Part shown: positions 11,936-16,742 of the stretch, one piece after another
Numbering within the stretch: position 1 is the first letter of the stretch
Layout of the letters: each line of letters begins with the position of its first letter
Virus genome (UHGV): UHGV-0281303
From: a virus
Strand: one strand, 5' to 3'
Length of the DNA stretch: 16,742 nt
Made by a program: the position numbers and the translations under genes
The notes under the pieces: model-generated
What the model was told of the DNA's origin: nothing
Databases searched by the model: none
The model's input: the letters and a program-made list of their open reading frames with translations, nothing else

Positions 11936-14103
11936 TGGCTAAGGCATGGAAAGATGTTATCGCTTCTCCACAGTATCAGGCGTTAACTGAAGAACAGAAA
12001 GCACAGGCTCAAGCGCAATATTTTGATGAGGTTGTTGCCCCTAAGGCTGGTGACAAATGGGCTGAAGCAAGAGATCAGTTTTATGCAGCATACCCTCCGC
12101 CTCAGCAGCAGAAAGAAGAACCATCATTGATGCAACAAGCTGGTGATTGGCTCACAGGTGGTCAAAGTGCAGGGCAAATTGCAGAACAGGCTGGTCGTGG
12201 TCTGGTAAACATACCATTTGACGTATTGCAGGGTGGCGCAAGTCTGATTAATGCAATCAGCCAGGGGCTTGGCGGCCCCAAGGTTTTGGATGATGTTTAT
12301 CGCCCCGTCGATCGACCGACAGACCCTTACGCGCAAGCCGGTGAAACAATTGGTGGGTATCTCCTGCCAATTGGCACAGCGGCAAAAGCTGCTGGATCGC
12401 CAGCAAAGCTCGCTGAAGATATCGGTTCCGCAGGAAACATGATTGCAGGTTCTCTTGCTGATGCTGCAAATCAGGAGGGCGACTTTGCACAAAATGCTGC
12501 CATTAACGGTGGTATCAATATTGGTGCTCAGGGGATACTTTCTGGCGCTGGAAGGATCTTAACATCTAAATCACCTCAAGTTCTTGGTGGCGGGGCAATA
12601 AATTCCGCTGCTGATGTTTCGAAAATGGCAAAGTCTGGTACAGGAAGAGAGATTATTGCCAGACAGTCAGCTAATGTGTCAGACGAAATAGCAAAAGCAG
12701 CAGATACTGCTGGAATAGATATCAACGCATTAACTCCTGGCATGAGATCAGGTAGTCGTGGTCTTGCTCAGGCGGAGGGGATTCTGGCGTCAAAGCCCGG
12801 AATTACACAGGATGCACACACCAAAGCATTCAGTGAAATAGAGTCGAAATTTAACTCAGCATTGGATGAGTTTGGGGCTGAAGCAGGAACTGCATCAGAA
12901 AAAAGTGCAGCCATAAAACAAAGGGTTTTGGCAAGTATTGATAAAATGAAAAATTCAGAAAAGGCCGCATGGGATAGCGTCCGCTCCACGATGCCTGACG
13001 CAAAGGCCAGAATGTCAAACCTGAACGCTACAATTCAGGGTGATATTTTGGCTGGCATGCCGCTAACTCCTGAGATGAAACAATTCGCATCTGCTTATGC
13101 TAAAACTGGTAAAAAAGGAATCACGTTTGATGCCATGAAGGCATGGCGAAGTAAACTTGCTGACGCAGAGCAGAAGTATATAAGGTCTGGTGAGGCAAAT
13201 ACGGCAAGGCGCATGGCTGAGCTTCGTGATGCAGCAACGGAAGATATGCGCATAATGGCTCAAAATGGCGGTTTTCTTGATGACTGGCAAAAAGCTAATG
13301 ATCTGTCAAAGGCAAGATTTACAGCACAAGAACAGGCTGAAGCGGCGTTTGGTAGAGACCTTGCAACTGATCAGTTGGTAACTAATGGCTCTAAGGCGTT
13401 ACAGGGTTCAGCAAAAAGTGGAACAGGTCAGTTCCATAAAATAATAAGTGCCCTACCTGAGTCAGAACGCGCGCCAGCAATTGCATCAATATTACAAGAT
13501 GCAATGTCGCAAGGGGTACGCGGAGGTAAGTCTGAAGAGGCTGGAATTAAGCATATCGCGACTATTCTTACCCCACAAAACGTGAAGGCAATTAGTCGAT
13601 ATTCTCCAGAACTTGGCAGGATTACAAGTTCATACGGAGAACTTGCACGAGCAGCAACAAAGCCACTTCGATATGTTGAACAGACAGGGCGATCTATGCC
13701 AGCCATTAGCACTCTTGAGAATGGCCTTCATCCAGTTTTAGAGAGCGCATTGTCTGGCGCTTTTAGAACTACTGGCACTATCGCAGGGTTCTCTGGAGGA
13801 GGCGTTATTGGAGCAATAGCGGGTGGCGCTGCAGGTGGGGCAATTGATGCAATGGCAAAAGGAGCGATAGCGAAATTATCCGCAACTAGAAGCGGTCGTT
13901 ACGCTATTGAAAAGGCTGTTCAAGAGGCAACAAAGGCAGTTAAGGTTGGGGCAAGTGATGGCGCATTAGCGGCGGCGGAACGCAGATTTATGGCAAATAA
14001 GGCCGCCGTAAAAGCAATACGCGAGGCACTAGGAAACGAAGAGTTCCAGCGTTTAGCAAGAGCTGGAATTGTGGCATCGCTAAGCGGAATGGCACAGGAG
14101 TAA
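11935..14103 (+). CDS. ejection (E) protein, P22 gp16-like (extended, 722 aa)
   Basis: Last gene of the late train, start overlapping the upstream stop. Gly/Ala-rich hydrophobic segment near the C-terminus ([29 protein letters not shown]), compatible with a membrane-active ejection protein. Longer than P22 gp16 (about 609 aa). Confidence 0.7.
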
Positions 14104-14487
14104 TTAGTCATCCATGGATGGATTGAGCTTATCTCGTGTTGATGTGGCAATTTTCCCAACATTTTTCAACCAAGATTTTAAGAAGGATATGTCGTCCTTA
14201 ATATCATGAATATCCTCATTCTTTATACGATCAACCTTATCCTCTAAGCTCTCTATAGAACGCTCAATGCTAGACAGAGAGATTTTTAAGTCCCCTTGCT
14301 CACGTTCCAGTGAGGATTTGAGAGCATAATATTCGTTTTCTAGAATTCCTATTTTTTTTGTTAGAGAGTGCATTCGATACTCATACACCAAACCAGAAAC
14401 GACTAATGCAGCCAACAGAAACCATTCAAGCACACCAACCTCCTTAGTTTTGAGCAGGATACCAGATGATGTATGGAGAGGCATCAT
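14104..14487 (-). CDS. small membrane protein with N-terminal TM helix and C-terminal coiled coil (sieA-position cargo gene)
   Basis: 127-codon ORF in AT-rich DNA, where long ORFs are unlikely by chance. Hydrophobic segment VLEWFLLAALVVSGLVYEY, then a heptad-like charged region (LENEYYALKSSLEREQGDLKISLSSIERSIESLEDKVDRIKNE). No obvious Shine-Dalgarno before the ATG, so the start is uncertain. Its stop abuts the gp16-like stop with zero spacer (TAA/TTA at 14101-14106). Confidence 0.55.
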   Translation of the reverse strand: MMPLHTSSGILLKTKEVGVLEWFLLAALVVSGLVYEYRMHSLTKKIGILENEYYALKSSLEREQGDLKISLSSIERSIESLEDKVDRIKNEDIHDIKDDISFLKSWLKNVGKIATSTRDKLNPSMDD

Positions 14488-14508
14488 CTACTGGTGATAG
14501 AACGATGG

Positions 14509-14537
14509 TTGCATAATGATATCACGTGACGTAGAAT
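14509..14537 (+). promoter_or_regulatory. candidate sigma70 promoter for the two-gene cassette, with overlapping palindromes in the spacer
   Basis: -35 TTGCAT (14509-14514), 17-bp spacer, -10 TAGAAT (14532-14537). The spacer holds palindromes TGATATCA (14517-14524) and TCACGTGA (14522-14529). Predicted start site is about 60 nt upstream of the ATG at 14606. Confidence 0.4.
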
Positions 14538-14605
14538 TACTGCGCATAGCGTGTATTCAATGGATGCATAGCTATTGATAATCTCCGATAAGAAAGGAGG
14601 TTTGT

Positions 14606-15172
14606 ATGAGCAATGAGACTAATGGGATTGATGAAATGTTTAGCTTGAACGCTGCCAAAGCTGGAGTCGCAATAGGTTTGCTATTACAGCAAGCTTCTGC
14701 GTTCAGTTGTGAGGTGGTTGTTACTGATAACGTTCAGCACGCTTACCATCAATCCTCATTCAGCAGTGAACAGGCTAATGATGAGCTTCATGAGGCGGTG
14801 TCTTCGATTAAAGAATTGTCTCGAATGCTGAAATACGCTTATCGTGTTCTTGCAAACGCTACCGATGAGAATGTAGACAATGTGTTGTCTATCATTGAAC
14901 CAGAAAAGTCTCGATTGATAGAGCATCAATTGAGAGGACTTGAAGGGGCAATGAAATCGGTATTCAAAGAAGCTTCTGCTGATTTTAAAGAGATCGCAAG
15001 AGATATCTATATCGTTGTTGCTGATGCTAGATCTGCCGTAACTAACCTGAATAGTCTTATTAAACAACGCTCATGTGTTCCGGTTGTTTTTGATAGTTCC
15101 GTAGATATGGCTGGTTTGCGTGCGCTTGCTGAGCACGGGACTCGTGTGTTTCACTCTGGTAACTTCCACTGA
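14606..15172 (+). CDS. hypothetical protein (188 aa), upstream partner of the YafO-like toxin; candidate antitoxin/immunity component of unknown family
   Basis: Strong ribosome-binding site AAGGAGG 5 nt upstream of the ATG. Stop codon TGA overlaps the Shine-Dalgarno (GAGG) of the downstream gene, with an 8-nt gap. Acidic, predicted mostly helical, no DNA-binding or TM motif that I recognise. Confidence 0.75.
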   Translation: MSNETNGIDEMFSLNAAKAGVAIGLLLQQASAFSCEVVVTDNVQHAYHQSSFSSEQANDELHEAVSSIKELSRMLKYAYRVLANATDENVDNVLSIIEPEKSRLIEHQLRGLEGAMKSVFKEASADFKEIARDIYIVVADARSAVTNLNSLIKQRSCVPVVFDSSVDMAGLRALAEHGTRVFHSGNFH

Positions 15173-15180
15173 GGTAAAAC

Positions 15181-15630
15181 ATGCAAGTAACCGTGGAATA
15201 TAATCAGGATAGTTTTGACTATTTTTTCTCCCCGGTTTTTGTTGAGTTTCCTGATTTAAAACAAACACTTGTAGATGATTTTATCATCTACAAGTCTACG
15301 GGAACGTTGCCCAGCTATTTTGGCAGAGACACCTCTTATCATCGGCCTCCTGATATTGAAGATGCAGGTCTTATGCACCTTCATTTAGCAATTGGTGAAA
15401 ATAAATTTGAGCCAATAAAAAATGGCACAGATATCAGCACACCGCAAAAGTTGCAGTGGCATAAAACATCCAATACCGCTCTCGTTTATGCACAAAATCT
15501 TTTTGATGAGAACAGGTATTCATTGATTGCTCTTTTTCATCCAGTAGCTCACATGTCTGCTAACAATCATAATAGAATGAGAGTGTTAGCAGGGTATGCG
15601 AGAGACTTTAGAAACACTATGTTTGACTAA
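15181..15630 (+). CDS. YafO-family toxin-like protein (ribosome-dependent mRNA interferase family)
   Basis: 149 aa. Motifs DFIIYKSTGTLPSYFGRD, HLHLA, ALVYAQNLFDENRYSLIALF and NNHNRM...FR align by eye with E. coli YafO as I recall it (DFISYKRDGVLPDTFGRD, HIHLA, HLVYCQGAFDEQAWLLIAIL, NNQMH...FR). Followed by an intrinsic terminator. Confidence 0.8.
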   Translation: MQVTVEYNQDSFDYFFSPVFVEFPDLKQTLVDDFIIYKSTGTLPSYFGRDTSYHRPPDIEDAGLMHLHLAIGENKFEPIKNGTDISTPQKLQWHKTSNTALVYAQNLFDENRYSLIALFHPVAHMSANNHNRMRVLAGYARDFRNTMFD

Positions 15631-15656
15631 ACCCACCGTCAGGTGGGTTTTTTTAT
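15630..15656 (+). terminator. rho-independent terminator after the toxin gene
   Basis: Stem ACCCACC (15631-15637), loop GTCA, GGTGGGT (15642-15648), then a T-run to 15654. Starts immediately after the stop codon at 15628-15630. Confidence 0.75.
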
Positions 15657-15686
15657 CTTCTCTACTTTAAAGATTAAGGAAATACC

Positions 15687-15866
15687 ATGACCATAGAAGA
15701 ACGTGTGGAAAACCTTGAACGCACCATCAAAGTGATGAAGTGCCATCTTGGAGAACTTCATCTTGAATCACTGAAGCATCAAGCAGAAGAGCTTGAGAAA
15801 TCAGCAAAATCAATGCGCAGTCGTTACGATTCGACTCTGGAGGCTATTAAAAACGGTAGCTATTGA
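15687..15866 (+). CDS. small hypothetical coiled-coil protein (59 aa)
   Basis: ATG at 15687 with AAGGA 7 nt upstream; charged helical sequence (MTIEERVENLERTIKVMK...). Not in the ORF track, presumably because it is under the length cut-off. Its 3' end overlaps the 3' end of the convergent minus-strand ORF by 20 nt, so one of the two may be spurious. Confidence 0.35.
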   Translation: MTIEERVENLERTIKVMKCHLGELHLESLKHQAEELEKSAKSMRSRYDSTLEAIKNGSY

Positions 15867-16032
15867 TACGAGAAGCAGTATCCAGATCATCCCTATCTCC
15901 GCTTCTTGTTAGTTCATCAAAAACAGCTTGTCGAGCATCTGGTGGCAACTTGGAGTAGATAAGTGATACCAGTTTATGAAGTTTCTTTAACTCGCGCTGC
16001 AACTCTTCGTTAGACATTGGTTTATTATTCAT
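15847..16032 (-). CDS. hypothetical protein (61 aa), distal gene of the mnt operon
   Basis: ORF in AT-rich DNA on the same strand as and downstream of mnt and orf90, 24-nt gap from orf90. Weak Shine-Dalgarno (AGGT about 9 nt upstream). No family recognised. Confidence 0.5.
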   Translation of the reverse strand: MNNKPMSNEELQRELKKLHKLVSLIYSKLPPDARQAVFDELTRSGDRDDLDTASRINSYRF

Positions 16033-16056
16033 TTTACATACCTGCCATGTACGCCG

Positions 16057-16329
16057 TTAATTAACTAATGTCATTGAACCTGGAAGGTTGCCACCTCTGA
16101 GATCAATACATTCTTCAGCTGTAGCCATTCTCCAATTTCCAAAAGCATCACGTATAGCAAATTGGTCTTCAAAGCCAAGCCAGATAGAGCACTGACCAAA
16201 CTCATCATATGTCTCTATCCGTATTGACTCTTCGGTAAACGGATAATAAGCTTCATATCTCTTTGCAAGCTCAATAGTGAAAGGAAGTACTTTTATTTGC
16301 TCGAAAATTTCTTTGTTCGTTGGTTTCAT
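16057..16329 (-). CDS. hypothetical protein (90 aa), translationally coupled to mnt
   Basis: Start ATG overlaps the mnt stop (ATGA, 16326-16329). GGGATGGG/AAGGGA purine-rich stretch 6-10 nt upstream. No family recognised. Confidence 0.6.
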   Translation of the reverse strand: MKPTNKEIFEQIKVLPFTIELAKRYEAYYPFTEESIRIETYDEFGQCSIWLGFEDQFAIRDAFGNWRMATAEECIDLRGGNLPGSMTLVN

Positions 16330-16568
16330 TTCCCATCCCTTACACGTTGTAGAACATCAATAGTCACATCAAGAGCCTCTTTCTCTGACTTGGTCAGTTG
16401 CTGACTACTTGAAGGTATTACCTGCTCTTTATGTATCTTTATCCACAATTGGATAGCGGCAATAATTTCAGCATTGATAGAGCGACGATTTGTTGCAGCA
16501 ATATGCGTAAGTTGCTGTTTTATCTCATCTGGCATTCTTACGTTGAATTGCGGATCATTTCTAGCCAC
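16326..16568 (-). CDS. mnt: Mnt-like ribbon-helix-helix repressor (immI region)
   Basis: 80 aa starting at a GTG (reverse complement of CAC at 16566-16568) with AAGGAG 6-7 nt upstream. N-terminus MARNDPQFNVRMPDEIKQQLTHIAATNRRSINAEIIAAIQ resembles P22 Mnt (MARDDPHFNFRMP...ANGRSMNSELLQIV) as I recall it. Divergent from an Arc-like gene. Confidence 0.85.
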   Translation of the reverse strand: MARNDPQFNVRMPDEIKQQLTHIAATNRRSINAEIIAAIQLWIKIHKEQVIPSSSQQLTKSEKEALDVTIDVLQRVRDGK

Positions 16569-16585
16569 GTCATTCTCCTTTTATT

Positions 16586-16640
16586 TGTTGACATGCTAGA
16601 ACGGTAGTAGTACGCTTTCAATAGTAGTACGGTAATACCA
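16586..16640. promoter_or_regulatory. divergent overlapping promoter/operator region between mnt and arc, with a direct repeat TAGTAGTACG
   Basis: + strand: -35 TTGACA (16588-16593), 17-bp spacer, weak -10 TACGCT (16611-16616). - strand: -35 TTGAAA (complement of 16616-16621), 17-bp spacer, -10 TAGCAT (complement of 16593-16598). Direct repeat TAGTAGTACG at 16605-16614 and 16623-16632, each containing the palindromic core GTAC. Confidence 0.4.
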
Positions 16641-16653
16641 CAAAGGGGATGAC

Positions 16654-16742
16654 ATGCAAGGTGCAAGAAAAATGCCGCAGTTCAATTTGCGGTGGCCTAA
16701 AGAAGTATTGGATTTGGTGCGCAAGGTAGCTGAAGAGAACGG
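16654..16742 (+). CDS. arc: Arc-like ribbon-helix-helix repressor, 5' part only (truncated by the window end)
   Basis: Translation MQGARKMPQFNLRWPKEVLDLVRKVAEENG... resembles P22 Arc (MKGMSKMPQFNLRWPREVLDLVRKVAEENGRS...) as I recall it. AAAGGGGA ribosome-binding site upstream. Runs off the window. Confidence 0.85.
   Translation, partial: MQGARKMPQFNLRWPKEVLDLVRKVAEEN

What the first reader, a model, noticed from the sequence alone, without database searches (positions are those of the whole stretch)
14509..14537. Overlapping palindromes inside the cassette promoter spacer: candidate autoregulatory operator
Two overlapping perfect 8-bp palindromes (TGATATCA and TCACGTGA) lie exactly between the putative -35 and -10 hexamers. 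Toxin-antitoxin operons are normally autorepressed by the antitoxin or complex binding palindromes that overlap the promoter, so this architecture fits an autoregulated module even though the partner protein has no obvious DNA-binding domain.
Basis: seen in the sequence. Interest (0 to 1): 0.45.

Follow-up and report, generated by a model that had tools for sequence, protein, structure and literature searches.

The report
Prophage toxin cassette promoter with palindromes

Summary
TTGCAT (14509-14514), a 17-bp spacer and TAGAAT (14532-14537) enclose two overlapping perfect 8-bp palindromes: TGATATCA (14517-14524) and TCACGTGA (14522-14529). Two such palindromes in a shuffled spacer are rare (P = 6e-4).

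The promoter reading is well supported. The same TTGCnn-17-TAnAnT is the best-scoring plus-strand promoter at the same aligned position in all six known lineages of this cassette. The cassette is an unknown 188-aa helical protein plus a YafO-family toxin, sitting between gene 16 and immI of P22-like prophages.

The operator reading is not supported.
- TCACGTGA is perfect only in the ~99%-identical E. coli allele.
- TGATATCA survives in 3 of 6 lineages.
- The cassette whose partner is 80% identical has no dyad at all.
- Dyad centres shift between lineages.
- Two distant cassettes with an identical partner protein carry different spacer dyads.
- The partner is acidic and all-helical, with no detectable DNA-binding fold.

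Other elements are conserved more strongly: a block just upstream of the -35, the start of the leader, and a hairpin that sequesters the ribosome-binding site in 12 of 12 lineages.

Verdict: an ordinary prophage "moron" promoter. Function of the palindromes is unproven and, on balance, unlikely to be autoregulation.

The parts
14495..14503 (+). Conserved block TGATAGAAC immediately upstream of the -35; this is the best-conserved stretch of the promoter region.
   Evidence: In 14494-14508, 10 of 15 columns are invariant across six lineages, against 14-23% at codon third positions. It resembles the left half of the Arc operator.
14509..14514 (+). -35 hexamer TTGCAT; the TTGC is invariant.
14517..14524 (+). 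Palindrome 1, TGATATCA. Across lineages only TGAnAnCA is invariant. It is perfect in the E. coli allele, L011 and L012.
14522..14529 (+). Palindrome 2, TCACGTGA. It is perfect only in the E. coli allele.
14532..14537 (+). -10 hexamer TAGAAT. Variants are TAAACT, TAGACT and TACACT, all of which keep TAnAnT.
14544..14575 (+). Inferred transcript start (about 14544-14546) and 5' leader hairpin. The outer stem ATAGC (14546-14550) pairs with GCTAT (14571-14575). The block CATAGCGT (14545-14552) is nearly invariant.
   Evidence: leader z-score -2.5 in the window and -2.4 in L009. The start site itself is inferred, not mapped.
14580..14602 (+). Hairpin that sequesters the ribosome-binding site: anti-SD AAUCUCC (14580-14586) pairs with SD GGAGGUU (14596-14602).
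   Evidence: All 7 pairs are kept in 7 of 7 aligned sequences. The SD core is paired with probability 0.9-1.0 in 12 of 12 cassette lineages, including five with unalignable upstream DNA. Only 1 of 16 GGAGG sites in the window has an upstream CTCC.
14606..15172 (+). 188-aa partner gene (candidate antitoxin): acidic, all-helical, no known family.
   Evidence: (phrog_8416).
15181..15630 (+). 149-aa YafO-family toxin gene.
   Evidence: PF13957 at 3.4e-22. NCBIfam PRK09885 scores 79 bits, below its 153-bit equivalog cut-off.
15629..15650 (.). Bidirectional intrinsic terminator that closes the cassette.
   Evidence: The right-hand limit of cassette homology in E. coli genomes is about 15653.
14104..14433 (-). 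Divergent hkcB-like gene (GTG start, SD AAGGAGG), with a candidate extended -10 (TGGTATCCT) at 14464-14456. It shares the intergenic region with the cassette but is not part of it.

Best explanation
Positions 14509-14537 are the core sigma-70 promoter of a self-contained prophage 'moron' operon. The operon runs promoter, about 60-nt leader, 188-aa partner gene, YafO-family toxin gene, terminator, and sits between gene 16 and the immI region of a P22/HK620-like prophage. The two overlapping palindromes are a sequence peculiarity of the E. coli allele of this promoter's spacer. They are not a conserved operator and are probably not bound by the partner protein or by the toxin-partner complex. 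On the evidence here, expression is shaped by elements that are conserved: the hexamers, an invariant block just upstream of the -35, a 5'-terminal leader hairpin, and a hairpin that pairs the Shine-Dalgarno sequence with an upstream CUCC and so limits translation of the partner gene. What is shown: the sequence features, their conservation, and the absence of a recognisable DNA-binding fold. What is inferred: the transcription start, promoter activity, the role of the hairpins, and the lack of binding to the palindromes.
Against: Two 8-bp palindromes in one 17-bp spacer are improbable by chance (P = 6e-4). The spacer is invariant in all 17 sampled copies of the E. coli allele, although other promoter positions vary; this is not significant, at P about 0.2. 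Six of the 8 columns of palindrome 1 are invariant across lineages, so something constrains TGAnAnCA. L009 (TTGAC-N5-GTCAA), L012 (ATGATATCAT), L015, L016 and L021 each carry a dyad in the spacer, and dyads are mildly enriched overall (Fisher P = 0.04 over ten lineages). Most characterised type II toxin-antitoxin operons are autorepressed at such sites (general knowledge). An unrecognised DNA-binding surface on a novel helical protein cannot be ruled out from a pLDDT-74 model.
Confidence: 0.6

Rival explanations
1. One reading: the palindromes are an autoregulatory operator. The 188-aa partner, alone or with the YafO toxin, binds them as a dimer and occludes RNA polymerase in the spacer, giving the usual negative feedback of type II toxin-antitoxin operons. 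In this view the operator has drifted or co-evolved in other lineages.
For: The dyads lie exactly between the -35 and -10. Two palindromes in one spacer are unlikely by chance. The spacer is more conserved than neutral sites. Several diverged and distant cassettes carry some dyad in the spacer (L009, L012, L015, L016, L021). The gene pair is tightly coupled in every lineage, as in toxin-antitoxin operons.
Against: The partner has no DNA-binding domain or fold and is acidic. The closest diverged relative, L006 (partner 80% identical), has lost both palindromes, and L007 has none. Dyad centres differ, falling at spacer columns 6.5 to 11.5 (reading). The identical partner sits behind two different dyads in L015 and L016. 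L004, L013, L017, L020 and L024 have no spacer dyad.
Confidence: 0.2
2. The spacer dyads and/or the conserved upstream block are an operator for a different regulator. Candidates are a prophage ribbon-helix-helix repressor of the neighbouring immI region (Arc or Mnt type) or a host factor such as Fur. This would tie cassette expression to the phage life cycle or to host physiology.
For: In P22 the Arc operator lies inside the 17-bp spacer of Pant, which is the same architecture. The conserved block 14493-14513 matches the window's own Arc-operator-like 21-mer (16592-16612) at 14 of 21 positions (P = 0.03), and the L001 allele matches at 15 of 21 (P = 0.005). TGATAGAA is identical to 8 bases of the P22 O-arc left half. 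An Mnt/Arc pair flanks the cassette in nearly all loci. By eye, 14512-14530 matches the 19-bp Fur consensus at 11 of 19 positions; this is my own comparison from memory of the consensus, not a tool result.
Against: Three different immI types, with operator repeats TAGTAGTAC, CACTTTGnTATC and CTACAnnGTGTAG, accompany the same conserved block, and none of their operators matches the spacer dyads. The block does not co-vary with immI type. Only one Arc half-site is present, and its 8 of 10 match to the P22 half-site is not significant (P = 0.2). TGATA[T/G]CA occurs several times per locus by chance. The Fur-like match is weak and is lost in L006-L009.
Confidence: 0.12
3. The constrained bases inside the palindromes belong to overlapping promoter elements rather than to an operator. 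One option is the -35 of a tandem promoter (xTGAyA at 14516-21, which is TTGACA in L007 and L009). The other is an extended -10 (TGATATCAT on the minus strand, 14524-14516) firing leftward toward the hkcB-like gene.
For: L007 has TTGACA-16-TATTAT at this position, scoring 14.2 bits, the best promoter of its region. TGnTATCAT is present on the minus strand in the window, L001, L006 and L012.
Against: In the window the tandem promoter would be ATGATA-16-TACTGC, which is too weak to appear among the top scores. The minus-strand element has no -35 and is absent in L007, L009 and L011. A better and conserved leftward extended -10 exists at 14464-14456.
Confidence: 0.08

Closest known systems
E. coli K-12 yafN-yafO (dinB-yafN-yafO-yafP operon)
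   Same: The toxin belongs to the YafO family (PF13957 at 3e-22). A co-oriented upstream partner gene abuts the toxin gene.
   Different: The partner is not YafN or Phd/YefM-like and belongs to no known family. The toxin scores 79 bits against the 153-bit equivalog cut-off. The cassette is prophage-borne with its own promoter and terminator. By inspection of 14490-14605 I see no LexA box (CTGT-N8-ACAG). Leplae et al. 2011 (PMC3141249) noted that YafO toxins pair with Phd antitoxins and with unclassified 'guilt-by-association' partners, and at that time found none on phages.
Canonical type II toxin-antitoxin autoregulation (e.g. relBE, phd/doc, ccdAB, mazEF operators)
   Same: Dyad-symmetric sequences overlap the core promoter of a two-gene operon with the toxin gene second.
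   Different: No RHH, HTH, AbrB or Phd DNA-binding domain is present in the partner. The dyads are neither conserved nor co-varying with the partner in related cassettes.
omega-epsilon-zeta systems
   Same: The toxin partner is helical and has no DNA-binding domain, and ribbon-helix-helix genes lie nearby, so regulation by a third protein is conceivable.
   Different: There is no evidence that the neighbouring Mnt/Arc proteins regulate the cassette. Their own operators differ from the spacer. The toxin family is different.
P22 Pant promoter with the Arc operator in its spacer
   Same: Same genomic neighbourhood (immI of P22-like phages). It provides a precedent for an operator filling the 17-bp spacer. 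TGATAGAA is shared with the conserved block upstream of the cassette's -35.
   Different: The shared motif lies upstream of the -35, not in the spacer. Only one half-site is present, and the spacer palindromes do not resemble O-arc.
Phage 'morons' (autonomous promoter-gene-terminator units inside late regions of lambdoid and P22-like prophages)
   Same: It has its own promoter and terminator, is inserted between gene 16 and immI, is present in some relatives and absent from others (HK620 carries hkcC there), and moves between unrelated prophage types.
   Different: Nothing essential differs. This is the category it fits best.

Membership tests
Sigma-70 promoter | -35-like and -10-like hexamers separated by 17 +/- 1 bp, upstream of a gene on the same strand | tested here: met
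   TTGCAT-17-TAGAAT lies 68 nt before the ATG and has the best weighted score in the intergenic region (10.8 bits). The -35 matches the consensus at only 3 of 6 positions, so the strict consensus scan missed it.
Sigma-70 promoter | Positional conservation of the hexamers in homologous regions | tested here: met
   The same position and spacing hold in all six lineages, and TTGC and TAnAnT are invariant.
Sigma-70 promoter | A mapped transcription start 6-8 nt after the -10 | not testable with these tools
   No transcript data were available. The start at about 14544 is inferred.
Type II toxin-antitoxin autoregulatory operator | Dyad-symmetric site overlapping the core promoter | tested here: met
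   Two perfect 8-bp palindromes lie in the spacer of this allele.
Type II toxin-antitoxin autoregulatory operator | Antitoxin carries a DNA-binding domain (RHH, HTH, AbrB/SpoVT, Phd/YefM) | tested here: not met
   No Pfam, NCBIfam or PADLOC hit. No PDB sequence match. The model is all-helical with only generic bundle matches. pI is 5.3.
Type II toxin-antitoxin autoregulatory operator | Dyad conserved in, or co-varying with, the antitoxin of related cassettes | tested here: not met
   Palindrome 2 is kept in 0 of 5 diverged lineages and palindrome 1 in 2 of 5. L006 and L007 have no dyad. An identical partner sits behind different dyads in L015 and L016.
Type II toxin-antitoxin autoregulatory operator | Binding by the antitoxin or complex, and repression of the promoter | not testable with these tools
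   This requires EMSA or footprinting and reporter assays.
YafO-family type II toxin-antitoxin module | Toxin matches the YafO family model | tested here: met
   PF13957 at 3.4e-22 and 78.9 bits against a 25-bit cut-off. The score is below the NCBIfam equivalog cut-off.
YafO-family type II toxin-antitoxin module | Conserved co-oriented partner gene immediately upstream | tested here: met
   The partner-YafO pair, with a gap of 8-10 nt (8 nt in nearly every lineage), is found in every lineage examined and in at least four prophage contexts.
YafO-family type II toxin-antitoxin module | Antitoxin of the YafN (Phd/YefM) type | tested here: not met
   The partner belongs to no known family, and only 23 cluster representatives were found among 1.84 billion proteins.
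YafO-family type II toxin-antitoxin module | Toxicity of the toxin and neutralisation by the partner | not testable with these tools
   There is only an indirect hint: in strain SF-088 the toxin gene is truncated while the partner gene is intact.
P22 Arc operator | 21-bp site with two inverted TAGA-containing half-sites | tested here: inconclusive
   The left half matches at 8 of 10 positions (P = 0.2). The full 21-mer of the window's own immI site matches at 14-15 of 21 (P = 0.03 to 0.005). There is no convincing right half, and the site does not co-vary with immI type.

The most novel reading that the evidence does not exclude
The cassette is a new kind of YafO toxin-antitoxin or phage-defence module whose 188-aa helical partner, from a family with no known relatives, controls its own operon in one of two ways. 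Either it binds lineage-specific dyads in the promoter spacer through an undescribed DNA-binding surface, or control has moved entirely to the RNA level, through a universally conserved hairpin that hides the ribosome-binding site of the partner gene. In the second case the operon would lack the transcriptional autoregulation that is the rule for type II modules.
Probability: 0.15. Interest if true: 0.55.

Novelty: new member of a known kind. Interest (0 to 1): 0.25.

Why it matters
The flagged element is a routine promoter, so the finding changes little by itself. What may be worth a bench experiment is the cassette it drives. It pairs a YafO-family toxin with a previously undescribed helical partner family. 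It is mobile among unrelated prophages of Enterobacteria and is present in about 1% of complete E. coli genomes, including ExPEC and APEC lineages. Its one universally conserved regulatory feature is a hairpin that sequesters the ribosome-binding site, not a DNA operator. If the partner is confirmed as an antitoxin without a DNA-binding domain, the module would be a useful case for asking how toxin-to-antitoxin ratios are set without transcriptional feedback, and whether such prophage cassettes act in phage defence or prophage maintenance.

Tried and rejected
- Consensus promoter scan. It did not list the promoter because TTGCAT matches the consensus at only 3 of 6 positions. I replaced it with a weighted score, using hexamer frequencies recalled from memory.
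- The search for related loci in genome contigs with a three-sequence alignment. It found no confirmed relative.
- The 14-base pattern GATAGAACNNTGNTTGC in viral contigs and genome contigs.
- A 26-base pattern spanning the promoter without constraining the spacer. It found no spacer types beyond the six already known.
- Cross-regulation by immI repressors. I compared the mnt-arc intergenic operators of three immI types with the spacer dyads. There was no match and no covariation, and the shared TGATATCA / TGATAGCA octamers occur several times per locus by chance.
- LexA box, as in K-12 dinB-yafNO. None was seen by inspection of 14490-14605.
- CII/C1-type TTGC-N6-TTGC. It is absent by inspection.
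- Fur box. The match is 11 of 19 by eye and is not conserved.
- Rfam scan of 13900-16742. Only sub-threshold hits to the terminator were found.
- Literature searches on the protein accessions and on YafO with P22-like phages. Nothing was found.
- Restriction-site explanation. GATATC occurs 13 times in the window and CACGTG once. This carries no interpretive weight.
- N-terminal hydrophobic stretch of the partner as a signal peptide. I considered and set this aside: the motif (A-V/I-G-L-L-M/L-Q) is sequence-conserved and too short, and I did not test it with a predictor.

Full report
**Context**

The window is the late region of a P22/HK620-like (Lederbergvirus) prophage of E. coli. ORF sizes and order match terminase, portal, scaffold, coat, gp4, gp10, gp26, gp14, gp7, gp20 and gp16. 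Matches to HK620 and to annotated E. coli prophages agree.

- Gene 16 ends at 14103.
- A divergent hkcB-like gene occupies 14104-14433 on the minus strand. It has a GTG start preceded by AAGGAGG, and HK620 annotates the same gene.
- Two plus-strand genes follow: an unknown 188-aa protein (14606-15172) and a 149-aa protein (15181-15630) that hits PF13957 YafO_toxin at 3.4e-22.
- A bidirectional terminator lies at 15629-15650.
- Beyond it come minus-strand ORFs and an Mnt/Arc-type immunity region.

This block is a mobile unit. Fifty-five of 5426 complete E. coli genomes carry it at about 99% identity, from about 14493 (homology extends less well to 14431) to about 15653. It sits in P22-like prophages whose flanking genes differ. 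HK620 has hkcC in its place. No deposited phage genome contains it.

**The observation**

The sequence is as described:
- TTGCAT at 14509-14514
- a 17-bp spacer
- TAGAAT at 14532-14537
- TGATATCA at 14517-14524
- TCACGTGA at 14522-14529

The -35 matches the consensus at only 3 of 6 positions, which is why the strict scan missed it.

Statistics:
- The window contains 44 perfect 8-bp palindromes, against about 69 in Markov simulations.
- This is its only overlapping pair.
- A shuffled spacer contains at least one 8-bp palindrome 5% of the time and at least two 0.06% of the time.

For this allele the feature is therefore unlikely to be pure chance.

**Is it a promoter?**

The partner protein has few relatives. 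A search of 5.8 billion proteins found five diverged clusters at 80, 66, 63, 61 and 54% identity. All of them lie at the same place in P22-like prophages of Escherichia and Salmonella and are followed 8 nt later by a YafO gene.

The upstream regions align. In every lineage a weighted promoter score places TTGCnn-17-TA(G/C/A)A(A/C)T at the same aligned position. It is top-ranked in all but L007, where it is second at 9.2 bits behind an overlapping TTGACA-16-TATTAT.

TTGC and the T, A, A and T of the -10 are invariant. Within the E. coli allele the -10 varies between TAGAAT and TAAACT. I regard the promoter as well supported, although the start site (about 14544) is only inferred.

**Are the palindromes an operator?**

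Evidence against:
- Complementary pairs out of four, for palindromes 1 and 2, are 4 and 4 in the E. coli allele, 3 and 2 in L006, 2 and 1 in L007 and L008, 3 and 3 in L009, and 4 and 2 in L011 and L012.
- TCACGTGA is therefore perfect only in the E. coli allele.
- L006, whose partner is 80% identical, has no dyad better than shuffles (P = 0.99). The same is true of L007 (P = 0.67).
- A pattern search that left the spacer unconstrained found only these six spacer types in IMG/VR and JGI metagenomes.
- Where dyads exist, their centres differ. Measured in spacer columns they fall at 6.5 in L012, 7.5 and 11.5 in the window, and 9 in L009 (my reading).

Evidence in favour of some constraint:
- The spacer is not neutral. 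Seven of 17 columns are invariant across six lineages, against 14-23% at codon third positions.
- Six of the 8 columns of palindrome 1 are invariant, giving the pattern TGAnAnCA.

**More distant cassettes**

A profile search of 1.84 billion representatives found only 23 relatives. The ones I could place are again paired with YafO, but in other prophage settings: beside dusA, inside lambda-like and myovirus tail modules, and next to another immI. Their upstream DNA does not align with the window.
- L004, L013, L017, L020 and L024 have no dyad in the predicted spacer.
- L015, L016 and L021 do. Their dyads abut the -10: TTACTC-AG-GAGTAA, TTATCA-G-TGATAA and TTACC-ATATA-GGTAA.
- Dyad enrichment over ten lineages is marginal (Fisher P = 0.04).
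- L015 and L016 encode the identical partner protein yet have different dyads. A recombination junction lies between the promoter and the gene. If those dyads are operators, this argues against the partner as the binder.

**The partner protein**

- No Pfam, NCBIfam or PADLOC family matches it. Its only family is PHROG 8416, of unknown function.
- It has no sequence relative in the PDB.
- Its AlphaFold model (pLDDT 74) is six helices.
- Foldseek finds nothing at E<0.05.
- Its pI is 5.3.

Nothing suggests a DNA-binding domain. A novel one cannot be excluded.

**What is conserved instead**

1. The block GTGATAGAAC (14494-14503), immediately upstream of the -35, is the most conserved stretch. In 14494-14508, 10 of 15 columns are invariant.
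2. CATAGCGT lies at 14545-14552. Its ATAGC pairs with GCTAT at 14571-14575 to close a 5'-terminal hairpin.
3. AAUCUCC at 14580-14586 pairs with the Shine-Dalgarno sequence GGAGGUU at 14596-14602. All seven pairs are kept in all aligned sequences.

The third feature recurs in every lineage with a GGAG Shine-Dalgarno sequence, 12 of 12, including five whose upstream sequence cannot be aligned. The arms and loops differ: CUCCUU/AAGGAG, CUCC/GGAG and CUCCU/GGGAG. The predicted pairing probability of the Shine-Dalgarno core is 0.90-1.00. In the window only 1 of 16 GGAGG sites has an upstream CTCC. Translational restraint of the partner gene is thus the best-conserved regulatory feature of the family.

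**Other regulators considered**

P22's annotated Arc operator fills the spacer of Pant. It shares TGATAGAA with the conserved upstream block. The window's own Arc-operator-like 21-mer (16592-16612) matches 14493-14513 at 14 of 21 positions (P = 0.03), and the L001 allele matches at 15 of 21 (P = 0.005).

Against this lead, the block is invariant across three different immI types, and none of their operators resembles the spacer dyads. I keep it as a weak lead. No LexA, CII-type or convincing Fur site is present (by inspection). No Rfam family matches.

**Conclusion**

The 29 bases are the promoter of a prophage moron that carries a YafO-family toxin and a novel helical partner. The palindromes are real and unusual in this allele.

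My estimates are:
- about 0.6 that they are not a dedicated operator
- about 0.2 for autoregulation by the partner or complex
- about 0.12 for another regulator
- about 0.08 for overlapping promoter elements

Only a start-site map, reporter assays and binding assays can settle the question.

Noticed in passing
window 14580-14602; also L004 3493-3510, L013 about 1472-1492, L015 about 1472-1492, L017, L020, L021: The Shine-Dalgarno sequence of the partner gene is paired with an upstream CUCC in 12 of 12 cassette lineages, including five with unalignable upstream DNA. This points to conserved translational restraint of the putative antitoxin gene.
   Followed up: yes
window 14493-14513 versus window 16592-16612 and P22 O-arc (L019 366-386): The invariant block upstream of the -35 resembles the Arc operator. 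It matches the window's own immI site at 14-15 of 21 positions and shares TGATAGAA with P22 O-arc. It does not co-vary with immI type.
   Followed up: partly
L015 1367-1383, L016 (homologous position), L021/L022 promoter about 194 nt before the ATG: Distant cassettes carry different dyads abutting the -10: TTACTC-AG-GAGTAA, TTATCA-G-TGATAA and TTACC-ATATA-GGTAA. L015 and L016 have the identical partner protein but different dyads. The binder, if any, is unknown.
   Followed up: partly
window 14431-14470 (minus strand) and the equivalent positions in L006-L012: A conserved leftward 5' region (extended -10 TGGTATCCT, SD AAGGAGG, start codon) precedes a different cargo gene in each prophage: hkcB-like, Rap1a-domain, and 140-, 297-, 111- and 107-aa proteins. 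It looks like a variable 'slot' back-to-back with the cassette. The same 40 bp occurs in phages that lack the cassette.
   Followed up: partly
L026 (E. coli SF-088) 2188-2636: The YafO gene is annotated as a shorter ORF (start displaced by about 125 nt) while the partner gene is intact. This is consistent with erosion of a toxic gene.
   Followed up: no
L021/L022 leader, about 60-100 nt before the ATG: A tandem duplication, CGTGTATCGCACATCATGC x2, lies in the leader. CGTGTAT also occurs in the window's conserved leader block (14549-14555).
   Followed up: no
window 14505-14515 and 14560-14570: A direct repeat, ATGGTTGCATA / ATGGATGCATA, lies 55 bp apart. The second copy is in the leader and is not conserved in diverged lineages.
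   Followed up: partly
whole window: Perfect palindromes are depleted. There are 170 six-mers against 262 expected and 44 eight-mers against about 69, as is usual for phage DNA under restriction pressure. Three of the 44 eight-mers lie in the 172-bp cassette intergenic region.
   Followed up: partly
window 16581-16640: The immI control region of this prophage has a Pant-like promoter, TTGACA-17-TACGCT. It also has repeated TAGTAGTAC motifs and a near-perfect 15-bp dyad, GTAGTACGGTAATAC, which is probably the Mnt operator of this immunity type. The arc gene runs off the window end.
   Followed up: partly
L002 7252-7788: In many E. coli copies a ClpP-like protease subunit gene lies convergent to the YafO gene, in one operon with the Mnt-like gene. 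The window has two small unknown ORFs there instead (15847-16032 and 16057-16329, minus strand).
   Followed up: no
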